64,000 nt of DNA. Source: Gemmatimonadales bacterium (GTDB lineage: Bacteria > Gemmatimonadota > Gemmatimonadetes > Gemmatimonadales > GWC2-71-9). Where the stretch lies: assembly GCA_038209515.1 (NCBI GenBank), contig JBBQXQ010000004.1, forward strand, positions 1,078 through 65,077, read 5' to 3'. The position numbers were made by a program, and so were the translations under genes. The notes under the pieces are model-generated. The model saw nothing but the letters and a program-made list of their open reading frames with translations. It was not told the origin of the DNA and made no database searches. This document shows positions 18,419-25,991 of this stretch, in pieces; positions within the stretch are counted from its first letter, which is position 1, and each line of letters begins with the position of its first letter.

Positions 18419-18508
18419 TTCCCGCCGTCATACCGACAAGATTCCACCCGCTTCATCACCCCGGTCGGGCGCCTGCCGGGCTTCTCGGGACCCTTGTGGA
18501 GATACTGG

Positions 18509-18727
18509 ATGGCCAAAGAAGAAGGCATTGAAATGGAAGGGGTGGTGACGGAGGTGCTACCCGACCGGAATTACCGAGTCATGCTGGAAAACGGTCACGA
18601 GATTCTGGCCTACGCGGCCGGGAAGATGAGCAAATTCAAGATTCGCGTACTGGAGGGCGACAGGGTCAGCGTGGTGCTCTCTCCGTACGATCTCACGCGT
18701 GGACGCGTGATTTATCGGCATAAATAA
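18509..18727 (+). CDS. infA: translation initiation factor IF-1
   Basis: 72 aa: [40 protein letters not shown]...RGRVIYRHK. Confidence 0.97.
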
Positions 18728-18795: not shown

Positions 18796-18829
18796 CAAAA
18801 AGGCCGCTCAGTTGGAGCGGCCTTTGTTT
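18796..18829. terminator. bidirectional rho-independent terminator between convergent infA and cspA
   Basis: AAAAAA, then GGCCGCTC agttg GAGCGGCC, then TTTGTTT. The A-run and T-run flank an 8-bp GC stem. Confidence 0.8.
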
Positions 18830-18850
18830 AGACGCTCACCGTGAGGTGCG

Positions 18851-19063
18851 CTATTTCACCTTGGTGACGTTCTCGGCGGCGGGGCCCTTCGCACCCTGCA
18901 CGATGTCGAACTCAACCCGGTCACCCTCGGAAAGGCTGCGGAAGCCTTCGGCCTTGATGGCGGTGTGGTGGACAAAGCAATCCTTGTCACCATTCTCCGG
19001 AGTGATGAAACCAAAGCCCTTCGCGTCGTTGAACCACTTCACCGTGCCGATGGTGCGCGCCAT
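18851..19063 (-). CDS. cspA: cold-shock protein (CspA family)
   Basis: 70 aa: [36 protein letters not shown], carrying the RNP1/RNP2 motifs. The upstream part of the 84-aa ORF is discarded. Confidence 0.95.
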
Positions 19064-19150
19064 GTTGCCTACTCCATGTTTGTTTGACTGCGTCGGCGCC
19101 GGCAAAGTCCGGGCACCGAGTTTTTATGGGCGCAGGCCTGTCCCGCGTCA

Positions 19151-19267: not shown

Positions 19268-21064
19268 TTAGTCAAGGGGGGAGCCGCGGAGCCAGCGGGC
19301 CGCGGCACGCGCCCAGTCGGCCACCGGCTCCCGACCGGAGGTGCCGGCCGCGTGGTTCACGGCCTGGAGAAACTCGGCCGCGGACGAATAGCGTTCGTCC
19401 ACGTCCGCGCTGAGCGCGCGATCGAGGACCCGTTCCAGCGCCTCGCTCACATCGTCCCGCTGCCCCCGGGAAGTGGGAAACTGATTGGTGGTTTGTTTCG
19501 CGAGCACCTGCTCGACCGTTCTTCCCGGAAAGGGCGGCGTGCCGAGTAAGGCGTAGTACGCTACTGCGGCCAGACTGTACAGGTCCGACCGCTGGTCGAC
19601 CCGCTCACCCAGCAGCTGCTCGGGACTGGCGAATTGAGGCGTCCCGCTCTGGCTGGTGGCCCCGGCGTATTTCCCCCGAATCGCCAGGGCAAGGCCGAAG
19701 TCGGTGATCTGGAGGCTCCCCGTGAGATCGAACAGCATGTTTTCGGGCTTGATGTCGCGGTGCACCAGCCCGGACCCATGCGCGTGGGCAAGGGCGGAGA
19801 GCGCCTCTCGCAACAGTCGCAGGACGCGGTCGAGCGACAGCGGCCCTTCGCGTTCCACCAGCTGAGCCAGGCTCGGGCCCTCGATCAACTCCATGGTGTA
19901 CCACAGGAGTCCCGATCGGCCTCCGATGTCATAGATGTTCACGATGTTGGGATGGCTCAGACCTGCCGCGTGCTGGGCTTCCCGGCGGAAGCGCTCGACC
20001 ACCTCTGGATCCCGGGTGAGCAGAGGCTGGAGAACCTTGAGCGCCACTTCCCGCTCGAGGTGCAGGTCGCGCACCCGATACACCCGGCCGAAGCCGCCGG
20101 TTCCCAGCAGGCCGAGCAGCTCGTAGTCGTCGCCCAATGCCCTGCGGAGCCGCTTCTCCCAGCGGGCCTTGTCCTCGACGTCTGCCATTGGCCCCGGGCC
20201 AACCGGGACCAGTGGCGTCTCAAAGGTGCCCGCGTCCGAGGCAAAGTCCTCCAGCATCTCCGCCGCGGTGAGATACCGGTCGTCCGGGTCGGGCTGCATC
20301 GCCCTCATAAGGATACGCTCGATGGCGCGGGGGCAGGCCGGCCTCAGCTCCGTTGGCCGACGCAGCTGGCTGGGATCGAGCGGCGGCTCCTCGCCGGTAA
20401 TCGCGACGTAGAGTACAGCGCCTGCTGTGTAGACGTCGCTCGTGGCATCACCCGCGGCGCCCTCTCGAATCTCCGGCGCCATGTAGGCCGGCTCGGGCGG
20501 TAGGGTGCCGGGCGGGATGGCTGAAAGGACATAGCTGCAGAAACGGAGGTCGGTCACCGTCCCTCTGTCGGCGGTACTCAGCAGCAGCGAGGCGGGCACC
20601 ACCCGGCGAACGATGATGACATGGGCGTGGGCATGCTCCAGAGCACCCAGAAGGTCCCGAGCCAGTGTGTGCACCAAGGGGATCGGCCGGGGCCCGCGGC
20701 GGAGCGCGTCCTGGAGACTCTCCCCCTCAATCCAGTTGCCTACCCGGTACGCCAGCTCGCCGAGCACTCCGGCGTCGTATACATGGCGGATGGCGGGATG
20801 GTCCAGCCGGCCCAGTGCCTCTGCCTCTCGGAGGAACCAGCCTCTGGTGGCTGGGTCCAGATCCACTCGGAGGCTGACCCGCCGCTTCAGCACCTCATCC
20901 CAGGCCTCGAACAGGGCGAGCTCCTGGGTCGCGGCAACTGTGCGCTGCAGGCGGTACCGGTCGCCGAGCGCTGCATGCGTGCGGCGGAAATACTCCAGTG
21001 GCTCGATTGTGGAGGTCAGCGCAGGAGTCCGCGGCGCCGCTCGACCTTCGTCTGCCGGCCGCAT
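19268..21064 (-). CDS. tandem pseudokinase-kinase Ser/Thr protein kinase (Hanks type), soluble
   Basis: The C-terminal domain has all catalytic motifs (GTGGFGRVY, VALKV, HRDIKPEN, DFG, SPE). The N-terminal domain is kinase-like but degenerate (no Gly loop, VSLRV, VRRVVPAS in place of HRDxKxxN, DLR in place of DFG; APE retained). ATG at 21064, GTG at 21079. Confidence 0.85.
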   Translation of the reverse strand: MRPADEGRAAPRTPALTSTIEPLEYFRRTHAALGDRYRLQRTVAATQELALFEAWDEVLKRRVSLRVDLDPATRGWFLREAEALGRLDHPAIRHVYDAGVLGELAYRVGNWIEGESLQDALRRGPRPIPLVHTLARDLLGALEHAHAHVIIVRRVVPASLLLSTADRGTVTDLRFCSYVLSAIPPGTLPPEPAYMAPEIREGAAGDATSDVYTAGAVLYVAITGEEPPLDPSQLRRPTELRPACPRAIERILMRAMQPDPDDRYLTAAEMLEDFASDAGTFETPLVPVGPGPMADVEDKARWEKRLRRALGDDYELLGLLGTGGFGRVYRVRDLHLEREVALKVLQPLLTRDPEVVERFRREAQHAAGLSHPNIVNIYDIGGRSGLLWYTMELIEGPSLAQLVEREGPLSLDRVLRLLREALSALAHAHGSGLVHRDIKPENMLFDLTGSLQITDFGLALAIRGKYAGATSQSGTPQFASPEQLLGERVDQRSDLYSLAAVAYYALLGTPPFPGRTVEQVLAKQTTNQFPTSRGQRDDVSEALERVLDRALSADVDERYSSAAEFLQAVNHAAGTSGREPVADWARAAARWLRGSPLD

Positions 21065-21567
21065 ACCGTGATGTTGCACCAGAGGCGGGTCTGGTTTGGC
21101 GAATCGTCGCTGAAGAAGAGAGAGCAGCCCTCACCGGCGCAGCGCCGCACAAAACGTAGCGAGTCGGCCAGGCTGGCGGCCGCTGACTGGGCGATGGCCT
21201 GGAGGATGGCCGGGCGCCGCTCGGGGGCAAACCGGACCTGCCACTCGCCGCTGATTCGGATGAGCTGATGACAGCCGGCACCCTGTGCCAACAGCTCGTT
21301 GATGGCCGCGATGGATGCTGCGGGAGGCTGCAGTCCGGCGTGCAGCGCCTCCGCCAGGGCCGTCAGCCGTTCCCGAAGCTGCAGCACGAGAGGGAGAGGA
21401 GGTTGCCCACCGTTGAGGTCGATGCTCTGTGCCGCCGACCAGCGAAGAAGGGCGGCGTCATCCGGGAGGAGGTCTGGTGGGGTGGGCCTGCGTCCCCTGG
21501 CGGTGTTGATGAAGTCGAGCCAGAGTGCGTCGCCCAGCAGGGTAAACTCGGATTCCGTCATGGTCAC
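21016..21567 (-). CDS. CGNR zinc-finger domain protein (ABATE + CGNR, putative stress-induced regulator family)
   Basis: N-terminus ALWLDFINT. C-terminus RFVRRCAGEGCSLFFSDDSPNQTRLWCNITVCGRQTKVERRR (C-x2-C ... WC-x4-CG-x-R). Abuts the DGC stop with a 0-nt gap. Confidence 0.8.
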   Translation of the reverse strand: MTMTESEFTLLGDALWLDFINTARGRRPTPPDLLPDDAALLRWSAAQSIDLNGGQPPLPLVLQLRERLTALAEALHAGLQPPAASIAAINELLAQGAGCHQLIRISGEWQVRFAPERRPAILQAIAQSAAASLADSLRFVRRCAGEGCSLFFSDDSPNQTRLWCNITVCGRQTKVERRRGLLR

Positions 21568-22902
21568 CTAGGCTTCCGCCACCTCGACCGTGTTCCTCCC
21601 CCCCCGCTTCGCACGGTACAGCGCGTTATCTGCCGCGGCCAGAACGCTGCTGACGGTCGTGCCGTGGTGGGGTGATTCGGCGATCCCCATGCTCAGCGTG
21701 CAGGCGCCGAATTCGGGGTTGGTCTTCTCGATCTCTCGCAGGCTCGCCTGCACCCGGGCAACGAACACCTTGGCTTCCGCCGGTTTGGTCATCGGCAGAA
21801 TCACCAGGAACTCGTCCCCACCGAGACGCCCCACCACGTCCAGCGCTCGACATTGCTGGCGGAGAATTTGGCCGACTTGCACCAGCAGGCGGTCGCCGGC
21901 GGCGTGGCCCATGGTATCGTTGACCACCTTGAACCGGTCCAGGTCGAGGAGAAGAACACTGGTGTGAAGCTGATGGCGCAAGCTGCGGGAAATTTCGGCG
22001 GCGAGGCGATCCTCCAGCGCGCGCCGGTTGCACAGCCCCGTCAGCTCATCGGTGGTGGCGGCGCTATGGAGCTGTTCCACCAGCTCCGAATTCTTGAGCG
22101 CAATCGCCGCCGCGAAGGATAGTGTACCTGCCAGCTCCGACTCGGCCCGTCCGTACAGCTTATCGCTGATCCGGGACCCGAGGACCAGCATCGCCATGCG
22201 CTCCGCTCCGGCGTCGAGGGGGACGACCAGCTCGGCCCCGGGACCGACCAGCTCTGCAACGGAGACGTCATCGGCCCCCGTGGCGGTGCTTCCCGGCGGG
22301 AGTGCCTGATCCAGCGCGCTCCGATCGATCGGTGCCGGCCGTAGCCGGTCGTTCAATGAACGAAAGATGGTAGGCATATAGGCCTCGCCCTCCGGCCGGT
22401 ACAGGCAGGCCCACCAGGCGAAGAACACCTCCGCCATGAAGTCTAGGATAAGCTGTTCGGTTTCTTCGGTAGAATGAACCGACGAAAGAAGCCGGGCGAC
22501 CTGACGCAGGGCCCGGAGCTGAAACGCCGCGTCGTCCAGCGCGGCCTGTCTCTCGAGCAGGATACTCCGGAGCTCCAGCACCACGCTAAGCCCGAGCGCC
22601 AGCGACATCGCCACGGCGCGCATCTCTTCCGCCACGAGGGGGTCCGCGTGGATGACCACCTCGGTCTGGCCACTGCCCAGGCGTGCCACCTCGACCGAGT
22701 CCTCGAACCCTGCGGCGGGGCCCACCCGGGGGAGGGATTCGCTGGGTGAGGTCAGGGCAAACCAGATCCGTTCACTCTGGAAACGCCGGACAAGCGCGAT
22801 CCGGCAACGCTCGAACAACTCCCCCTCGGTTCGAGAGAGCCGGCAGGCGGCTGCAAAGGCGCTGGGTAGGGTGGCTAGGGATGGGTGAGGGGTTAAACCC
22901 AT
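21568..22902 (-). CDS. GAF-GAF-GGDEF diguanylate cyclase
   Basis: GGDEF domain (DELTGLCNRR..., LLLDLDRFKVVND, GRLGGDEF) with an I-site RALD 5 residues before GGDEF. The N-terminal ~270 aa look like a GAF tandem. Confidence 0.85.
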   Translation of the reverse strand: MGLTPHPSLATLPSAFAAACRLSRTEGELFERCRIALVRRFQSERIWFALTSPSESLPRVGPAAGFEDSVEVARLGSGQTEVVIHADPLVAEEMRAVAMSLALGLSVVLELRSILLERQAALDDAAFQLRALRQVARLLSSVHSTEETEQLILDFMAEVFFAWWACLYRPEGEAYMPTIFRSLNDRLRPAPIDRSALDQALPPGSTATGADDVSVAELVGPGAELVVPLDAGAERMAMLVLGSRISDKLYGRAESELAGTLSFAAAIALKNSELVEQLHSAATTDELTGLCNRRALEDRLAAEISRSLRHQLHTSVLLLDLDRFKVVNDTMGHAAGDRLLVQVGQILRQQCRALDVVGRLGGDEFLVILPMTKPAEAKVFVARVQASLREIEKTNPEFGACTLSMGIAESPHHGTTVSSVLAAADNALYRAKRGGRNTVEVAEA

Positions 22903-23084
22903 GGCCTATAATACTCGGAGCCGAAGGCTGGAGGGAGCGGGAGAGCGGGTTGCGAGCCGGGCTCGGCCTGCTTAGATTCCGCTAAGCGATTAAGGAACAT
23001 AGCCCTTCGGGGCCCCAGGGATTTTAGCTTTGCAGCCTGGGTGATGAAAACTGCTAAAGCTGCCTGGTCCCGGCGAGCAACCGC

Positions 23085-24599
23085 TCAGCCGGGATTTGTG
23101 TTTCCAGCCTCGACCACCCGAGAGTTCCTGGGCGGATCGATCTTCCCCTTCAGGGAATCCGTGATATACCGTGTGAGCAGGTCCAGGGCTCTGGGGGCGG
23201 CCTCGCGCCGGCCACAGGCCGACATCGCCTCCGGCACCTTGTACCCATCCCCCCCGTCACAGGCCGTGTAGGCCCCAAACGCCACCACAACCGTGTCGTG
23301 CGGTCCCAGGACCGCTCCCTGGCTTCGCCGGATCTCGCCTACGATCCGGCTGCCGGAGGGGCGGTTGGGGTCGAAGGTGAATGACACACCGGACACCTGA
23401 AGAAACCCGCCACTGCCGAGAACCCCGCGGGAGACCCCGTGCTCCAGAATCTGTCTCACCCCGGCACCGCTCAGCGGGAAGGTGACGACCCGGGTCTGAT
23501 CGGCAAAGGGAAAGACCGCCTCGAGCTGGTGGTTGGTGACCGGGCCGGGCTTGATGGCGTTGTCCAGGCGCAGTGTGCCGGCGTTGAGCAGGGCGACATC
23601 GGCCCCGGTTCCAGCCCGCATAGCGTCCGTCACTAGATCGCCGAGCAATGACTCTCGCCGCCGCGACCCGCTGCTCGATGCCTCGATGGTCGCGCTGGTG
23701 AGGCCCACTTCGCGCACCGGTCCCAGTTGCCGGTCGAGGCTGTCCCTCCATGCCTCGATCACCCGCGCGGTCGCCGTATCGGACGGCAGTGCCTGATCGA
23801 TGCGCACCAGCCCTGTCGCCTGCCGCCATTTGCTCTTTCCGCCCCAGACGGTCACGAACTGGGCGCTTCTGGCATTCGCATCCGCCTTGACGACGTGCCG
23901 ATTCGAGGTGACGGAGTCCTGCGCCTCGTGCTCATGACCTCCCAGGATCAGGTCGAGTCGCGGCTCCCGTCCCAGCAGCTCGCGATCCGCCGGCATCGTC
24001 TGGTGAGTCACGCCGACGATCAGATCGGCGCCTTCGTCGGTGAGCGTTTGGATGACCCGGTGTGCGGCCGTGTCCGGGTTGGAGCAGCGGACGTAGGCGG
24101 GATAGGGGCCCTGGAGGGTGAGGCCGAACATCCCGACCTTATGACCGGAGACGTGCAGGGTGTCCCACGGGAAGACCTTCGGCAGCGGCTCTCCACTGGA
24201 CAGGGTGCAGTTGCTCGAGATCCACTTGAACTTCGACTCGCCGATCCGGGCAAGGAGGGTATCGAGCGGAAAGTCGAACTCGTGGTTGCCGAAGGTGGCG
24301 TAGTCGAGCTTGGCCGCGTTCAGCGCCTCTACCATCTGCCGGCCCCGATAGAACTTGCTGGCCAGGCTCGGGCTCAGCACGTCGCCGGCCAGCACGAAGA
24401 GGATCGGCCCCTGGTCGGCCAGGCGGTTCCGTACCGTGGCAACCCGGGCCAGGCCACCCTGTCCGTCGGGCATGGTGTCGGCCACATAGACGTCGTTGAT
24501 CACGAGGAAGCGGACCGGTTTGAGCGGGATCGGTGGCGGGGCGTTGCCCATGCACCCGGTCGCGCTGATCAGGATCGCAAGGATGACGCGACGGCTCAC
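23085..24599 (-). CDS. bifunctional metallophosphatase/5'-nucleotidase lipoprotein (UshA-like)
   Basis: Motifs VINDVY, AGDVLS, GNHEFD, GGHEHE. Lipobox VSRRVILAILISATGC. GTG 24599 overlaps the upstream stop (GTGA). Confidence 0.88.
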   Translation of the reverse strand: MSRRVILAILISATGCMGNAPPPIPLKPVRFLVINDVYVADTMPDGQGGLARVATVRNRLADQGPILFVLAGDVLSPSLASKFYRGRQMVEALNAAKLDYATFGNHEFDFPLDTLLARIGESKFKWISSNCTLSSGEPLPKVFPWDTLHVSGHKVGMFGLTLQGPYPAYVRCSNPDTAAHRVIQTLTDEGADLIVGVTHQTMPADRELLGREPRLDLILGGHEHEAQDSVTSNRHVVKADANARSAQFVTVWGGKSKWRQATGLVRIDQALPSDTATARVIEAWRDSLDRQLGPVREVGLTSATIEASSSGSRRRESLLGDLVTDAMRAGTGADVALLNAGTLRLDNAIKPGPVTNHQLEAVFPFADQTRVVTFPLSGAGVRQILEHGVSRGVLGSGGFLQVSGVSFTFDPNRPSGSRIVGEIRRSQGAVLGPHDTVVVAFGAYTACDGGDGYKVPEAMSACGRREAAPRALDLLTRYITDSLKGKIDPPRNSRVVEAGNTNPG

Positions 24600-25213
24600 A
24601 GATATTCCTCTCTCTCCCGAAGACTTCGCACCAGGTCGGCACTCATCAGTCGCAGCTCGGTCAGCATATCCCGTTGGGGCCAGTCCGGACGGCTGGCGAG
24701 AATTTCCAGCATCGAGCGATACCACCAGATCGTCTGTTCCGAGCTGGCGCGCGACACTGTGCGTAGGTACTCGACACCCAGTCGCCTGAGTGCCGTGACG
24801 GTAGAGCCGCAGGCGTGGATCTCGTCGGCCACACAGATGTCGAGCGCCCGGGGTTCCGCGATGCCGAGCTGGGTCAGGTACTCCTGCTTCTGGGCCTGCC
24901 AGGCGCGTTCGTTGCCGCGCCGGTCGAACTTGGGCTCCAGCGCATCCTTGGCCACCGCGAGCGCTACCGGCCCGAACTTGTCGCCGATTTTCCGCTCGAG
25001 CACCGGGTGCTTGTCCGGCGCGGATTCCTCCAGGATGTGGTGCAGGATGCCGGCGACGATTGTGATCTGATCACACCCGTATCGCGCGAGGATGACCGCC
25101 ACGTTGGACGGGTGCGCCAGATAGTCCATCCTGGCACCGGCAGGCGCGACCGCGCCGTGATATTTGGCGGCAAAGGCGAACGCGTGATTGATCCGGTCGG
25201 AATAGCCGTGCAT
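24596..25213 (-). CDS. HD-domain protein, Rel/SpoT/MESH1-hydrolase-like, with HD replaced by HH
   Basis: AFAFAAKYHG...DYLAHPSNVAVIL...DQITIVAGILHHILEES...CVADEI aligns by eye to the (p)ppGpp-hydrolase HD fold. ATG 25213 is chosen; the 323-aa ORF extension runs through a repeat and into queE. Confidence 0.6.
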   Translation of the reverse strand: MHGYSDRINHAFAFAAKYHGAVAPAGARMDYLAHPSNVAVILARYGCDQITIVAGILHHILEESAPDKHPVLERKIGDKFGPVALAVAKDALEPKFDRRGNERAWQAQKQEYLTQLGIAEPRALDICVADEIHACGSTVTALRRLGVEYLRTVSRASSEQTIWWYRSMLEILASRPDWPQRDMLTELRLMSADLVRSLREREEYL

Positions 25214-25218
25214 TCTCA

Positions 25219-25355
25219 GCGGGGAAGCGGGGAAGCGGGGAAGCGGGGAAGGAACGCTAAGCCTGGAGACAGACCGGATAAAGGGGTAGCAAGCGTGGCG
25301 GTCACGTACCCACCGACGCATCCTTCCCCGCTTCCCCGCTTCCTGGCTTCCCCGC
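25219..25355. repeat. inverted pair of (GCGGGGAA)4 arrays separated by ~70 bp, filling the queE-HD intergenic region
   Basis: 25219-25250 is 4 perfect 8-mers. 25324-25355 is ttccccgc, ttccccgc, ttcctggc, ttccccgc. The right end abuts the queE stop codon and the left end is 6 nt from the HD start codon. Confidence 0.95.
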
Positions 25356-25991
25356 TTACGGAATCCCGAGAAGCTTATGCGTCTGCAGGCTGAGCCGCCA
25401 GCGCGGGTGGGCCAGGCAGTATTGAAGGGCGGCCGAGGTGTTGGCCTCGCGGTCGGGTCCATCCATCGGCTGGAGGAAGTAGTGGCGGAACCCGAGCCGC
25501 TCGAACTGGTCCGGTGCCGTCCCGGCCTGCGGGAAAACCAGCTTGATCTCATCGCCACGGGTGACAACCAGCTCGGCCCCGGCCTTGGGGCTCACGCAGA
25601 GCCAATCGATGCCATTCGGGGCCGGCAGGGTCCCGTTGGTCTCGACCGCGATCTCGAAGCCTTCGCCGTGCAGGGCCTGGACCAGCTCCGAGTCCAACTG
25701 GAGGAGCGGCTCACCGCCGGTACAGACCACGAAGCGACGGCCAGACTCGGCCGGCGGCCAAGCGGCGGCTACCGCGGCCGCGAGCTCCCCGGCCGAGGCG
25801 AACCGTCCCCCACCGGGACCATCCGTGCCGACAAAATCGGTATCACAAAACTGGCAGGTGGCCTGGTGGCGGTCCTGCTCTCGCCCGCTCCACAGGTTGC
25901 AGCCGGCAAAGCGGCAGAACACCGCGGCCCGCCCAGTGTTGGCCCCTTCGCCCTGGAGGGTGTAGAAGATCTCTTTGACGGAATACGTCAT
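25356..25991 (-). CDS. queE: 7-carboxy-7-deazaguanine synthase (radical SAM)
   Basis: EIFYTLQGEGANTGRAAVFCRFAGCNLWSG...C-x-FCDTDF. Confidence 0.92.
   Translation of the reverse strand: MTYSVKEIFYTLQGEGANTGRAAVFCRFAGCNLWSGREQDRHQATCQFCDTDFVGTDGPGGGRFASAGELAAAVAAAWPPAESGRRFVVCTGGEPLLQLDSELVQALHGEGFEIAVETNGTLPAPNGIDWLCVSPKAGAELVVTRGDEIKLVFPQAGTAPDQFERLGFRHYFLQPMDGPDREANTSAALQYCLAHPRWRLSLQTHKLLGIP

What the first reader, a model, noticed from the sequence alone, without database searches (positions are those of the whole stretch)
19268..22902. Tightly coupled GAF-GGDEF / CGNR zinc-finger / tandem-kinase operon
Three signalling genes are packed on the minus strand with a 0-nt gap at 21567/21568 and a 49-nt overlap over 21016-21064:
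- a GAF-GAF-GGDEF cyclase with an intact GGDEF motif and an RxxD I-site
- an ABATE+CGNR zinc-finger protein
- a soluble tandem pseudokinase-kinase

None has a TM segment. The CGNR family is poorly characterised. Its fixed pairing with a c-di-GMP synthase and a Hanks kinase suggests a cytoplasmic signalling module, for example phosphorylation or c-di-GMP control of a zinc-finger regulator. I have not seen this described.
Basis: partly seen in the sequence, partly recalled or inferred. Interest (0 to 1): 0.65.

Follow-up and report, generated by a model that had tools for sequence, protein, structure and literature searches.

The report
CGNR gene inserted in cyclase-kinase operon
Three tightly packed signalling genes of a soil Gemmatimonadales bacterium form a real operon conserved across species, but the poorly understood zinc-finger gene in the middle is a later, sometimes lost, insertion into an older two-gene operon for a c-di-GMP synthase and a double kinase.

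Summary
On the minus strand lie three genes:
- a diguanylate cyclase (21568-22902) with an intact GGDEF motif and RxxD I-site
- an ABATE + zf-CGNR protein (21016-21561/21567)
- a soluble pseudokinase-kinase (19268-21064)

They are separated by 0-6 nt and a 49-nt overlap. Only one GAF-like domain is supported, not two.

The same order recurs in about 30 Gemmatimonadales species genomes and 68 of 75 informative metagenome loci.
- The whole 15-kb block is syntenic, so adjacency alone proves little.
- Eleven loci (10 distinct sequences) have the cyclase fused directly to the kinase (NTGA overlap) with no CGNR gene. One has the kinase alone. More distant cyclase homologues stand alone.
- Parsimony on a kinase tree puts the CGNR-less state at the root, with one early gain and at least two clean losses.

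The conserved core is therefore cyclase + tandem kinase, and the CGNR protein is a mostly retained accessory.

Both junctions look translationally coupled. In 17 loci the CGNR gene has only an ATC/ATT start, 2-5 nt after the cyclase stop.

I infer that the CGNR protein is an output or adaptor of this module, either a kinase substrate or a c-di-GMP target. I found no published description of such an operon. It is a new variant built from known parts, of moderate interest.

The parts
21568..22902 (-). Diguanylate cyclase gene (444 aa). It comprises a small N-terminal alpha/beta domain, a long helix, a GAF-like domain and a GGDEF domain.
   Evidence: ORF. Pfam GGDEF 3e-45. AF2 model at pLDDT 87. 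Foldseek top hits are GAF/PHY-GGDEF cyclases 5llw and 4zmu. Identity is 84-96% in the ~28 closer genome loci and 62-64% in the distant L029/L030/L032.
22642..22881 (-). Cyclase N-terminal domain 1 (aa 8-87; two helices plus three strands), family unassigned.
   Evidence: No Pfam hit even at E<=10. hhalign against domain 2 finds nothing. Topology comes from the AF2 model.
22054..22470 (-). Cyclase GAF-like domain (aa 145-283).
   Evidence: GAF_3 at E 2.8e-5, 25 bits against GA 27, with full model coverage. 'GAF_3 (weak)' is precomputed for the orthologues in L039 and L043. AF2 topology is a-bb-aa-bb-a.
21592..22059 (-). GGDEF catalytic domain, containing the GGDEF motif (21808-21822) and the RxxD I-site (21838-21849).
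   Evidence: The GGDEF motif and the I-site R352 and D355 are invariant in the 15 aligned orthologues.
21016..21567 (-). ABATE + zf-CGNR gene. The probable start is the ATG at 21561 (181 aa). ABATE spans 21163-21528 and the zinc finger 21031-21150, with Cys143/148/164/169.
   Evidence: Pfam hits are above gathering score. The four Cys are invariant in 21 orthologues. The PDB match to 3h0n (Jann_2411) is weak, E 0.017.
19268..21064 (-). Tandem pseudokinase-kinase gene (598 aa from the ATG at 21064). Its first 49 nt overlap the CGNR zinc-finger coding region.
   Evidence: The TG of the start codon is the first two bases of the Cys169 codon of the CGNR protein.
20237..20956 (-). Pseudokinase domain (aa ~37-276), with VSLRV (K->R), VRR in place of HRD, DLR in place of DFG, and no G-loop.
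   Evidence: the same substitutions occur in both pair-only and trio lineages. It has a PknB-like fold by sequence, E 2.6e-21.
19358..20125 (-). Active Hanks-type kinase domain (aa ~314-569), with GTGGFG, VALK, HRDIKPEN, DFG and SPE motifs.
22908..22913 (-). -10-like TATTAT box 5 nt upstream of the cyclase ATG. It is the probable promoter of a leaderless operon mRNA.
   Evidence: A TAnnnT box ends 3-9 nt before the start in 70 of 81 loci and 10-12 nt before it in the other 11. This is inference; no TSS data exist.

Best explanation
**Shown by comparison**
- This is a three-gene, translationally coupled cytoplasmic signalling operon specific to a Gemmatimonadales lineage.
- Its ancestral and most conserved core is a two-gene unit: a GAF-type, I-site-bearing diguanylate cyclase whose stop codon overlaps (NTGA) the start of a soluble pseudokinase-kinase.
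- An ABATE/CGNR zinc-finger gene was inserted exactly at that junction early in the radiation. It has been kept in most descendants with coupling preserved on both sides, and was cleanly deleted again at least twice.

**Inferred mechanism**
- The cyclase senses a cytoplasmic cue through its N-terminal domains and makes c-di-GMP under product feedback.
- The active kinase domain, regulated by its pseudokinase partner, acts in the same pathway. It either modifies the cyclase or reads its output.
- The CGNR protein is made in fixed, probably low, stoichiometry by re-initiation after the cyclase stop. It is an accessory output or adaptor: a dimeric nucleic-acid-binding protein whose activity is set by phosphorylation and/or c-di-GMP.
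For: **Gene order**
- The order is kept in 30 of 34 GTDB-species loci and in L043-L045.
- Among 80 metagenome loci there are 56 complete trios and 12 more cut at the contig end.

**Junctions**
- The cyclase-to-CGNR gap is 0-8 nt in the genome loci examined; one trio locus, L044, is looser (28 nt).
- 17 loci have no ATG/GTG/TTG for the CGNR gene, only ATC/ATT 2-5 nt after the cyclase TAG.
- The CGNR-to-kinase junction is a 49-nt overlap, a 4-nt NTGA overlap or a 1-11-nt gap.

**Core pair and evolution**
- Pair-only loci have an NTGA overlap or a 6-nt gap between cyclase and kinase.
- In NJ trees the pair-only lineages branch deepest. Fitch parsimony gives the root as CGNR-absent with 3 changes among 106 kinases.
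- The pseudokinase degeneration is identical in pair and trio lineages.
- The CGNR gene is under purifying selection: zinc ligands and about 70 other columns are invariant.
- The cyclase is the most conserved gene of the block (84-96% in the closer loci), against 50-91% for CGNR and 52-95% for the nucleotidase there.
- The cyclase sensor region is rare: 69 clusters at 50% identity among 1.84 billion representatives.

**Family context**
- The CGNR family is predicted to be a dimeric, ligand-sensing DNA binder (PMC2954205).
Against: - No direct evidence exists for any interaction, phosphotransfer or c-di-GMP binding.
- The entire ~15-kb neighbourhood is syntenic, so adjacency could partly be inheritance.
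- The CGNR gene is dispensable in at least four lineages, and in L108 the kinase persists without the cyclase.
- The CGNR protein evolves faster than its neighbours.
- One trio locus (L044) has a 186-nt gap before the kinase.
- No CGNR-specific operator could be recognised upstream. The conserved CTCCC and -10 boxes also occur in pair-only loci.
- The AF2 model of the CGNR protein was unusable, pLDDT 52.
- The NJ/parsimony reconstruction has no outgroup and no support values.
Confidence: 0.55

Rival explanations
1. SiaABCD-like partner switch. The small CGNR protein does not act on DNA. It binds the cyclase directly and switches it on or off, and the Hanks kinase phosphorylates it to control that binding.
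For: - The small gene sits between the cyclase and the kinase, with stoichiometric coupling to the cyclase.
- There is a precedent: SiaC binds and activates SiaD unless phosphorylated by SiaB (PMC8457831, PMC7647112).
- SiaD-SiaC (7e6g) is among the structural matches of the GGDEF part.
- SiaD is the best NCBIfam hit, though far below its cut-off.
Against: - No PP2C phosphatase is present in the operon.
- The CGNR protein is unrelated to SiaC, and the kinase is Hanks-type, not SiaB-type.
- Pair-only lineages work without the small protein.
- The CGNR zinc finger keeps its basic C-terminal tail (RRRGLLR), which is typical of nucleic-acid binding (PMC2954205).
Confidence: 0.15
2. Passenger gene. 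The CGNR gene landed by chance in the cyclase-kinase junction. It is kept because deleting it risks breaking the coupled translation of the kinase, and it has no role in that pathway.
For: - It has been cleanly lost at least twice and is absent from the deepest lineages.
- It evolves faster than both neighbours.
- CGNR paralogues elsewhere sit in unrelated metabolic contexts.
- The whole region is syntenic anyway.
Against: - It has been retained with zinc ligands and many residues invariant across lineages down to 45% identity.
- Coupling has been re-optimised on both sides, including a kinase start embedded in the zinc-finger codons.
- A functionless insert would decay, not stay under purifying selection. 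That argues for a function, though not necessarily for one in the same pathway.
Confidence: 0.18
3. Nucleotide-sensing pseudokinase. The degenerate N-terminal kinase domain, whose former ATP site is lined with conserved arginines (VSLR, VRR, DLR), binds c-di-GMP made by the co-translated cyclase. It then allosterically switches the C-terminal kinase, which phosphorylates targets that include the CGNR protein.
For: - The cyclase-kinase coupling is ancient and tight.
- The Arg-rich substitutions are invariant across all lineages.
- c-di-GMP sites are typically Arg-based (established knowledge).
- This reading would explain why the pair is the conserved core.
Against: - It rests purely on residue identities.
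- I know of no c-di-GMP-binding Hanks pseudokinase, and none was found in the literature search.
- L108 keeps the kinase without the cyclase.
Confidence: 0.1
4. Anti-phage defence kinase locus, of the PD-T4-6 / MADS6 / PglW type.
For: The kinase matches PADLOC PD-T4-6 and mad6 models and NCBIfam MADS6.
Against: - These are generic Hanks-domain matches, well below the NCBIfam cut-off (260 against 460 bits).
- The cyclase and the CGNR protein have no defence hits.
- The locus is a stable, vertically inherited block among housekeeping genes (queCE, infA, csp, pepF), not a variable island.
Confidence: 0.02

Closest known systems
Jann_2411 (PDB 3H0N), the founding ABATE + CGNR zinc-finger protein (Pfam PF07336 + PF11706)
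   Same: - It has the same two-domain architecture and a similar length (~180 aa).
- It has four zinc-binding Cys in a treble-clef spacing and a basic C-terminal helix.
- Both Pfam models are matched above gathering score.
   Different: - It is only distantly related (profile E 0.017 against 3h0n).
- The motif reads CGRQ/CGRE rather than CGNR.
- The gene is embedded in a cyclase-kinase operon, whereas the published contexts are transcription regulators and ABC transport.
- No member of the family has an experimentally defined function.
SiaABCD of Pseudomonas aeruginosa (a threonine-phosphorylation partner switch that controls the diguanylate cyclase SiaD)
   Same: It is one operon that combines a diguanylate cyclase, a protein kinase and a small intermediary protein. 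Ser/Thr phosphorylation is linked to c-di-GMP synthesis.
   Different: - The kinase here is a Hanks-type tandem pseudokinase-kinase, not a SiaB-type kinase.
- No PP2C phosphatase is present.
- The small protein is a zinc finger, not SiaC.
- The small protein is dispensable in several lineages.
GAF- or phytochrome-linked diguanylate cyclases (Dcsbis 4zmu; IsPadC 5llw), and I-site-regulated cyclases such as PleD and WspR
   Same: A sensor domain is joined by a long helix to a GGDEF domain. The GGDEF active site is intact, and the RxxD inhibitory site lies five residues upstream.
   Different: The N-terminal ~120 residues match no known family. The whole sensor region is confined to about 69 sequence clusters, essentially this lineage.
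Pseudokinase-kinase tandems (JAK JH2-JH1; plant tandem kinase proteins such as WTK1/Yr15)
   Same: One polypeptide carries a catalytically dead kinase fold next to an active one. In JAKs the pseudokinase is likewise N-terminal and regulates the kinase.
   Different: - This protein is bacterial, soluble and PknB-like, with no receptor or integrated-decoy domains.
- It is genetically coupled to a c-di-GMP synthase.
- A 2025 review of bacterial pseudokinase families (PMC12599244) does not contain the words 'tandem' or 'GGDEF'.

Membership tests
GGDEF diguanylate cyclase (PF00990) | Match to the GGDEF domain model above the curated cut-off | tested here: met
   154 bits against 23.8. TIGR00254 gives 162 bits against 37. 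PDB cyclases match at 1e-37.
GGDEF diguanylate cyclase (PF00990) | Intact GG(D/E)EF active-site motif, and an RxxD I-site five residues upstream | tested here: met
   GGDEF is at aa 361-365 and RALD at aa 352-355. The GGDEF motif and the I-site R352 and D355 are invariant in 15 orthologues.
GGDEF diguanylate cyclase (PF00990) | c-di-GMP synthesis from GTP | not testable with these tools
   This needs an enzyme assay.
   Domain 2 (aa ~125-275) hits GAF_3 at 25 bits against GA 27, E 2.8e-5, with GAF-like AF2 topology and GAF/PHY-GGDEF Foldseek hits. Domain 1 (aa 1-120) has no hit and no similarity to domain 2.
ABATE + zf-CGNR (PF07336 + PF11706) | Both domain models matched above the gathering score, in the order ABATE then CGNR | tested here: met
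   ABATE scores 64.9 bits against 24.4 and zf-CGNR 43.1 against 24.
ABATE + zf-CGNR (PF07336 + PF11706) | Four zinc-coordinating cysteines of the treble clef, and the CGNR motif | tested here: met
   C143, C148, C164 and C169 are invariant. The motif reads CGRQ/CGRE; the type structure itself reads CQNR (PMC2954205).
ABATE + zf-CGNR (PF07336 + PF11706) | ABATE fold, dimer and nucleic-acid binding | tested here: inconclusive
   The AF2 model is too poor at pLDDT 52. Similarity to 3h0n is only E 0.017. Binding is not testable here.
Hanks-type Ser/Thr kinase (PF00069), C-terminal domain | G-loop, VAIK Lys, alphaC Glu, HRD Asp, catalytic-loop Asn, DFG and APE-like motif | tested here: met
   GTGGFG, VALK, E362, HRDIKPEN, DFG and SPE are conserved in all lineages. 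Pkinase scores 212 bits.
Pseudokinase, N-terminal domain | Kinase fold lacking one or more of VAIK Lys, HRD Asp and DFG Asp/Gly | tested here: met
   It has a PknB-like fold, E 2.6e-21. K->R, HRD->VRR and DFG->DLR are present, the G-loop is absent, and this holds in every lineage sampled.
SiaABCD partner-switch module | PP2C phosphatase (SiaA), SiaB-type kinase and SiaC-type partner encoded alongside the cyclase | tested here: not met
   The operon flanks are a 5'-nucleotidase and csp. No PP2C, SiaB or SiaC homologue is present. SiaD similarity is limited to the GGDEF domain, 170 bits against 290. The resemblance is functional analogy only.
Anti-phage kinase systems (PD-T4-6, MADS, BREX PglW) | Match above the family cut-off, plus partner genes or a defence-island context | tested here: not met
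   MADS6 scores 260 bits against 460 and PglW 133 against 990. There are no partner genes, and the context is stable housekeeping synteny.

The most novel reading that the evidence does not exclude
The cyclase, the tandem kinase and the CGNR protein form a previously unknown relay from c-di-GMP to Ser/Thr phosphorylation.
- The arginine-lined pseudokinase domain is a c-di-GMP (or related nucleotide) receptor that gates the adjacent active kinase.
- The kinase phosphorylates the CGNR zinc-finger protein, turning it into the transcriptional or RNA-level output.

If true, this would give the first biochemical function for the large, uncharacterised ABATE/CGNR family and the first second-messenger-sensing bacterial pseudokinase.
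Probability: 0.08. Interest if true: 0.8.

Novelty: new variant of a known kind. Interest (0 to 1): 0.4.

Why it matters
The ABATE/CGNR family has one crystal structure and no experimentally defined function. A lineage in which such a gene has been wedged into a cyclase-kinase operon and kept there is useful for two reasons.
- It gives concrete, testable partners: a kinase substrate, a c-di-GMP target or a cyclase modulator.
- Natural CGNR-less sister operons can serve as controls.

The older pairing is itself an undescribed link between the two main bacterial cytoplasmic signalling currencies. It joins an I-site-bearing diguanylate cyclase to a soluble pseudokinase-kinase, in an abundant but poorly studied soil phylum.

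Nothing here overturns current understanding, because the parts are all familiar domains.

Tried and rejected
- **AF2 of the CGNR protein.** With 21 close orthologues it gave pLDDT 52, which is unusable, so no fold search was run on it.
- **Second GAF domain.** Profile-profile comparison of cyclase domain 1 against domain 2 found nothing.
- **Rfam.** A search of the locus and of the whole window found only a sub-threshold cspA thermoregulator hit over the csp gene. The conserved hairpin after the nucleotidase matches no family. No tRNAs are present.
- **Promoter and terminator scan.** The sigma-70 scan flagged a weak site at 23050-23021 and no internal terminators of note. I regard the conserved TATTAT box at 22908-22913 as the better promoter candidate.
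- **CGNR operator.** I looked for a CGNR-specific operator in aligned upstream regions. The conserved boxes also occur in CGNR-less loci, and the palindrome in the window (CGAGCC-C-GGCTCG) is not conserved.
- **Defence-system reading.** Rejected.
- **Literature.** Searches for a CGNR function, for cyclase plus Hanks kinase operons and for bacterial tandem pseudokinase-kinases returned nothing relevant beyond PMC2954205 and the SiaABCD papers.
- **Family-wide census.** A census of CGNR neighbourhoods could not be done with the capped tools. Only three out-of-lineage CGNR loci (L031, L033, L034) were seen, and none has a kinase or GGDEF neighbour.

Full report
**1. What is in the window**

Three minus-strand ORFs occupy 19268-22902. 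The window is about 65% G+C. Close relatives of all three proteins come from Gemmatimonadales metagenome-assembled genomes.

- **Cyclase (21568-22902, 444 aa).**
  - It has a GGDEF domain (Pfam 3e-45; TIGR00254 8e-48).
  - The GGDEF motif lies at aa 361-365, and an RxxD (RALD) lies five residues upstream.
  - The GGDEF motif and the I-site R352 and D355 are invariant in the 15 aligned orthologues.
- **CGNR protein (21016-21567, 183 aa).**
  - It matches ABATE (1.5e-17) and zf-CGNR (3.7e-11), both above gathering score.
  - It has four invariant cysteines, C143, C148, C164 and C169.
- **Kinase (19268-21079 as the longest ORF).** It has two kinase-fold domains.
  - The N-terminal domain has a PknB-like fold (E 2.6e-21). 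It lacks the G-loop and reads VSLR for VAIK, VRR for HRD and DLR for DFG.
  - The C-terminal domain has every catalytic motif.
- **Solubility.** None of the three has a credible membrane segment. The cyclase's one hydrophobic stretch lies inside a long predicted connecting helix.

**2. Corrections to the observation**

- **Gap before the CGNR gene.** Most CGNR orthologues are 181 aa and begin at the ATG equivalent to 21561, 6 nt after the cyclase stop, rather than at the GTG at 21567.
- **Kinase start.**
  - The ATG at 21064 (49-nt overlap) is the best-supported start.
  - In many species a stop closes the kinase frame just upstream, and no canonical start lies between the CGNR stop and the conserved EPLRYF block.
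  - The TG of that start codon is the first two bases of the codon for zinc ligand Cys169.
- **'GAF-GAF'.** This is half supported.
  - Residues ~125-275 give GAF_3 at E 2.8e-5, 25 bits against a cut-off of 27.
  - A pLDDT-87 AlphaFold model shows a GAF-like a-bb-aa-bb-a unit there.
  - Its best structural matches are GAF/PHY-GGDEF cyclases.
  - Residues 1-120 form a small two-helix, three-strand module with no family match and no similarity to the second domain.

**3. Is the arrangement conserved?**

Yes, within a lineage.

- A scan of one genome per GTDB species with a CGNR alignment returned 34 loci.
  - Thirty are from Gemmatimonadales/Gemmatimonadota and carry cyclase, CGNR and kinase in the same order wherever the contig reaches.
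  - Protein identities range from 91% down to 45% for CGNR.
- The whole block is conserved as well: queC, queE, HD_4, 5'-nucleotidase, then the trio, then csp, facing infA, pepF and an amidase. Adjacency by itself is therefore weak evidence.
- Three CGNR genes outside the orthologous group have no kinase or GGDEF neighbour. They are L031 in the same order, and L033 and L034 in Baekduia.

**4. The key result: the CGNR gene is an insertion into an older pair**

- The cyclase's 275-residue sensor region is rare. Only 69 clusters at 50% identity match it among 1.84 billion representatives.
- Looking up the contigs of the more distant cyclase and kinase relatives gave three kinds of locus.

| Loci | Arrangement |
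|---|---|
| L036, L039, L040, L041, L042 | Same synteny, but the cyclase is followed directly by the tandem kinase. The junction is a 4-nt NTGA overlap or a 6-nt gap. No CGNR homologue is present. |
| L043, L044, L045 | Trio |
| L035, L037/L038 | Still more distant cyclase homologues, standing alone |

- A metagenome scan seeded with the kinase alignment returned 80 loci:
  - 56 complete trios
  - 12 with CGNR and kinase but cut before the cyclase
  - 6 pairs without CGNR
  - 1 with the kinase directly after the HD gene, lacking both cyclase and CGNR (L108)
  - 5 too short to classify
- In neighbour-joining trees of both kinase and cyclase, the pair-only lineages L036 and L039/L040 branch deepest.
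- Fitch parsimony on 106 kinases puts the CGNR-less state at the root, with three changes. That means one early gain and at least two clean losses.
  - L069, for example, is 78% identical to its nearest trio relative.
- The pseudokinase degeneration is identical in all lineages, so the tandem kinase predates the insertion.
- These trees are unrooted NJ trees without support values. The direction of change is probable, not proven.

**5. Evidence for operon-level coupling**

- The cyclase-to-CGNR gap is 0-8 nt in the genome loci examined. One trio locus, L044, has 28 nt.
- In 17 loci of one subclade no ATG, GTG or TTG lies upstream of the invariant EFTLLGD. The codon aligned with the ATG of other species is ATC or ATT, 2-5 nt after the cyclase TAG. 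This implies termination-reinitiation.
- The CGNR-to-kinase junction takes several forms:
  - a 49-nt overlap in the crown clade
  - a GTGA overlap in L043 and L024
  - a 1-11-nt gap in L045, L029, L030 and L032
  - a looser 186-nt gap in L044 only
- No terminator-like element of note lies inside the operon. A strong bidirectional terminator follows csp at 18799-18825.
- A -10-like TAnnnT box (TATTAT at 22908-22913 in the window) ends 3-9 nt before the cyclase start in 70 of 81 loci, and 10-12 nt before it in the rest. This suggests a leaderless or near-leaderless transcript. That is an inference, since no transcript data exist.

**6. How it most likely works**

- **Shown.**
  - The cyclase-tandem kinase unit is ancient and co-translated.
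  - The CGNR gene was later inserted between them, is mostly retained and is under purifying selection.
  - The cyclase is the most conserved gene of the region (84-96% in the closer loci, as conserved as csp). CGNR is among the least conserved (50-91% in the same loci).
- **Inferred.**
  - The cyclase and kinase act in one cytoplasmic pathway, either by phosphorylation of the cyclase or by kinase control through c-di-GMP.
  - The CGNR protein is an accessory output or adaptor.
  - Its family is predicted to be a dimeric, ligand-responsive nucleic-acid binder (PMC2954205).
- The pair functions without the CGNR protein in several lineages.
- Three alternatives are listed under the rival explanations:
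  - a SiaABCD-like partner switch (PMC8457831, PMC7647112)
  - a functionally unrelated passenger gene
  - c-di-GMP sensing by the arginine-lined pseudokinase pocket
- A defence-system reading is rejected.

**7. Comparison with what is known, and novelty**

- Each protein is a clear member of a known domain family (see the membership table).
- The operon is not a member of the SiaABCD system. It has no PP2C, SiaB or SiaC homologues, and the resemblance is functional only.
- Full-text searches found none of the following:
  - a functional study of any CGNR protein
  - a description of a cyclase plus Hanks kinase operon
  - a treatment of bacterial tandem pseudokinase-kinases
- I rate this as a new variant of a known kind, built from familiar signalling domains.
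- It is moderately interesting because it offers specific partners and natural CGNR-less controls for an uncharacterised family. It also links c-di-GMP and Ser/Thr phosphorylation in Gemmatimonadota.

**8. Verdict**

- Interest is 0.4.

Noticed in passing
L009-L011, L013, L015-L017, L019, L023, L026, L070-L072, L075, L089, L096, L103 (junction equivalent to window 21559-21570): In 17 orthologous loci the CGNR gene has no ATG/GTG/TTG start. The codon aligned with the ATG of other species is ATC or ATT, 2-5 nt after the cyclase TAG stop. This suggests non-canonical initiation by termination-reinitiation.
   Followed up: partly
window 22908-22913 (-), with a CTCCC box at 22933-22938: A conserved GGTATTATAGGCC sequence lies immediately before the cyclase ATG. 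A -10-like box ends 3-9 nt upstream of the start in 70 of 81 loci, with no Shine-Dalgarno sequence, so the mRNA is probably leaderless. A conserved CTCCC motif sits ~19 nt further upstream, in pair-only loci too.
   Followed up: partly
window 23001-23016 (-), just after the 5'-nucleotidase stop at 23085: The small hairpin CCCTGGGGCCC-NNNN-GGGCTATG has a conserved stem and a variable tetraloop. It occurs in many loci, including the distant L036. There is no U-tract and no Rfam match, and its function is unknown.
   Followed up: partly
L108 (metagenome contig Ga0079224_100046921), 1557-5676: An orthologous tandem kinase sits directly after the HD_4 gene with neither cyclase nor CGNR gene (queC-queE-HD-kinase-csp). 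The kinase can therefore persist without the cyclase.
   Followed up: partly
window 21062-21064 and 21061-21063 (-): The kinase start codon NTG shares its TG with the codon of zinc ligand Cys169 of the CGNR protein. N is the wobble base of the preceding codon and varies among species (A, G, T or C). The first ~16 kinase residues are therefore encoded inside the zinc finger in another frame.
   Followed up: yes
window 21568-22902 compared with its neighbours, across L001-L028: The cyclase is unusually conserved for a signalling protein. It is 84-96% identical across species in which the adjacent 5'-nucleotidase is 52-95% and queC 69-95% identical, making it about as conserved as the cold-shock protein.
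   Followed up: no
window 18494-18727 (+), 18799-18825, 18796-19117 (-): An infA (IF-1) gene converges on csp, with a strong 11-bp bidirectional terminator between them. The csp region gives a sub-threshold Rfam cspA-thermoregulator hit (56.7 bits against 78).
   Followed up: no
window 24596-25567 and 23085-24725 (-): Upstream of the operon lie an HD_4 (RelA/SpoT-type hydrolase-like) gene and a lipoprotein-like 5'-nucleotidase. The HD_4 gene is kept next to the operon in all lineages, whereas the nucleotidase is missing in L030, L032, L041, L042 and L045.
   Followed up: no
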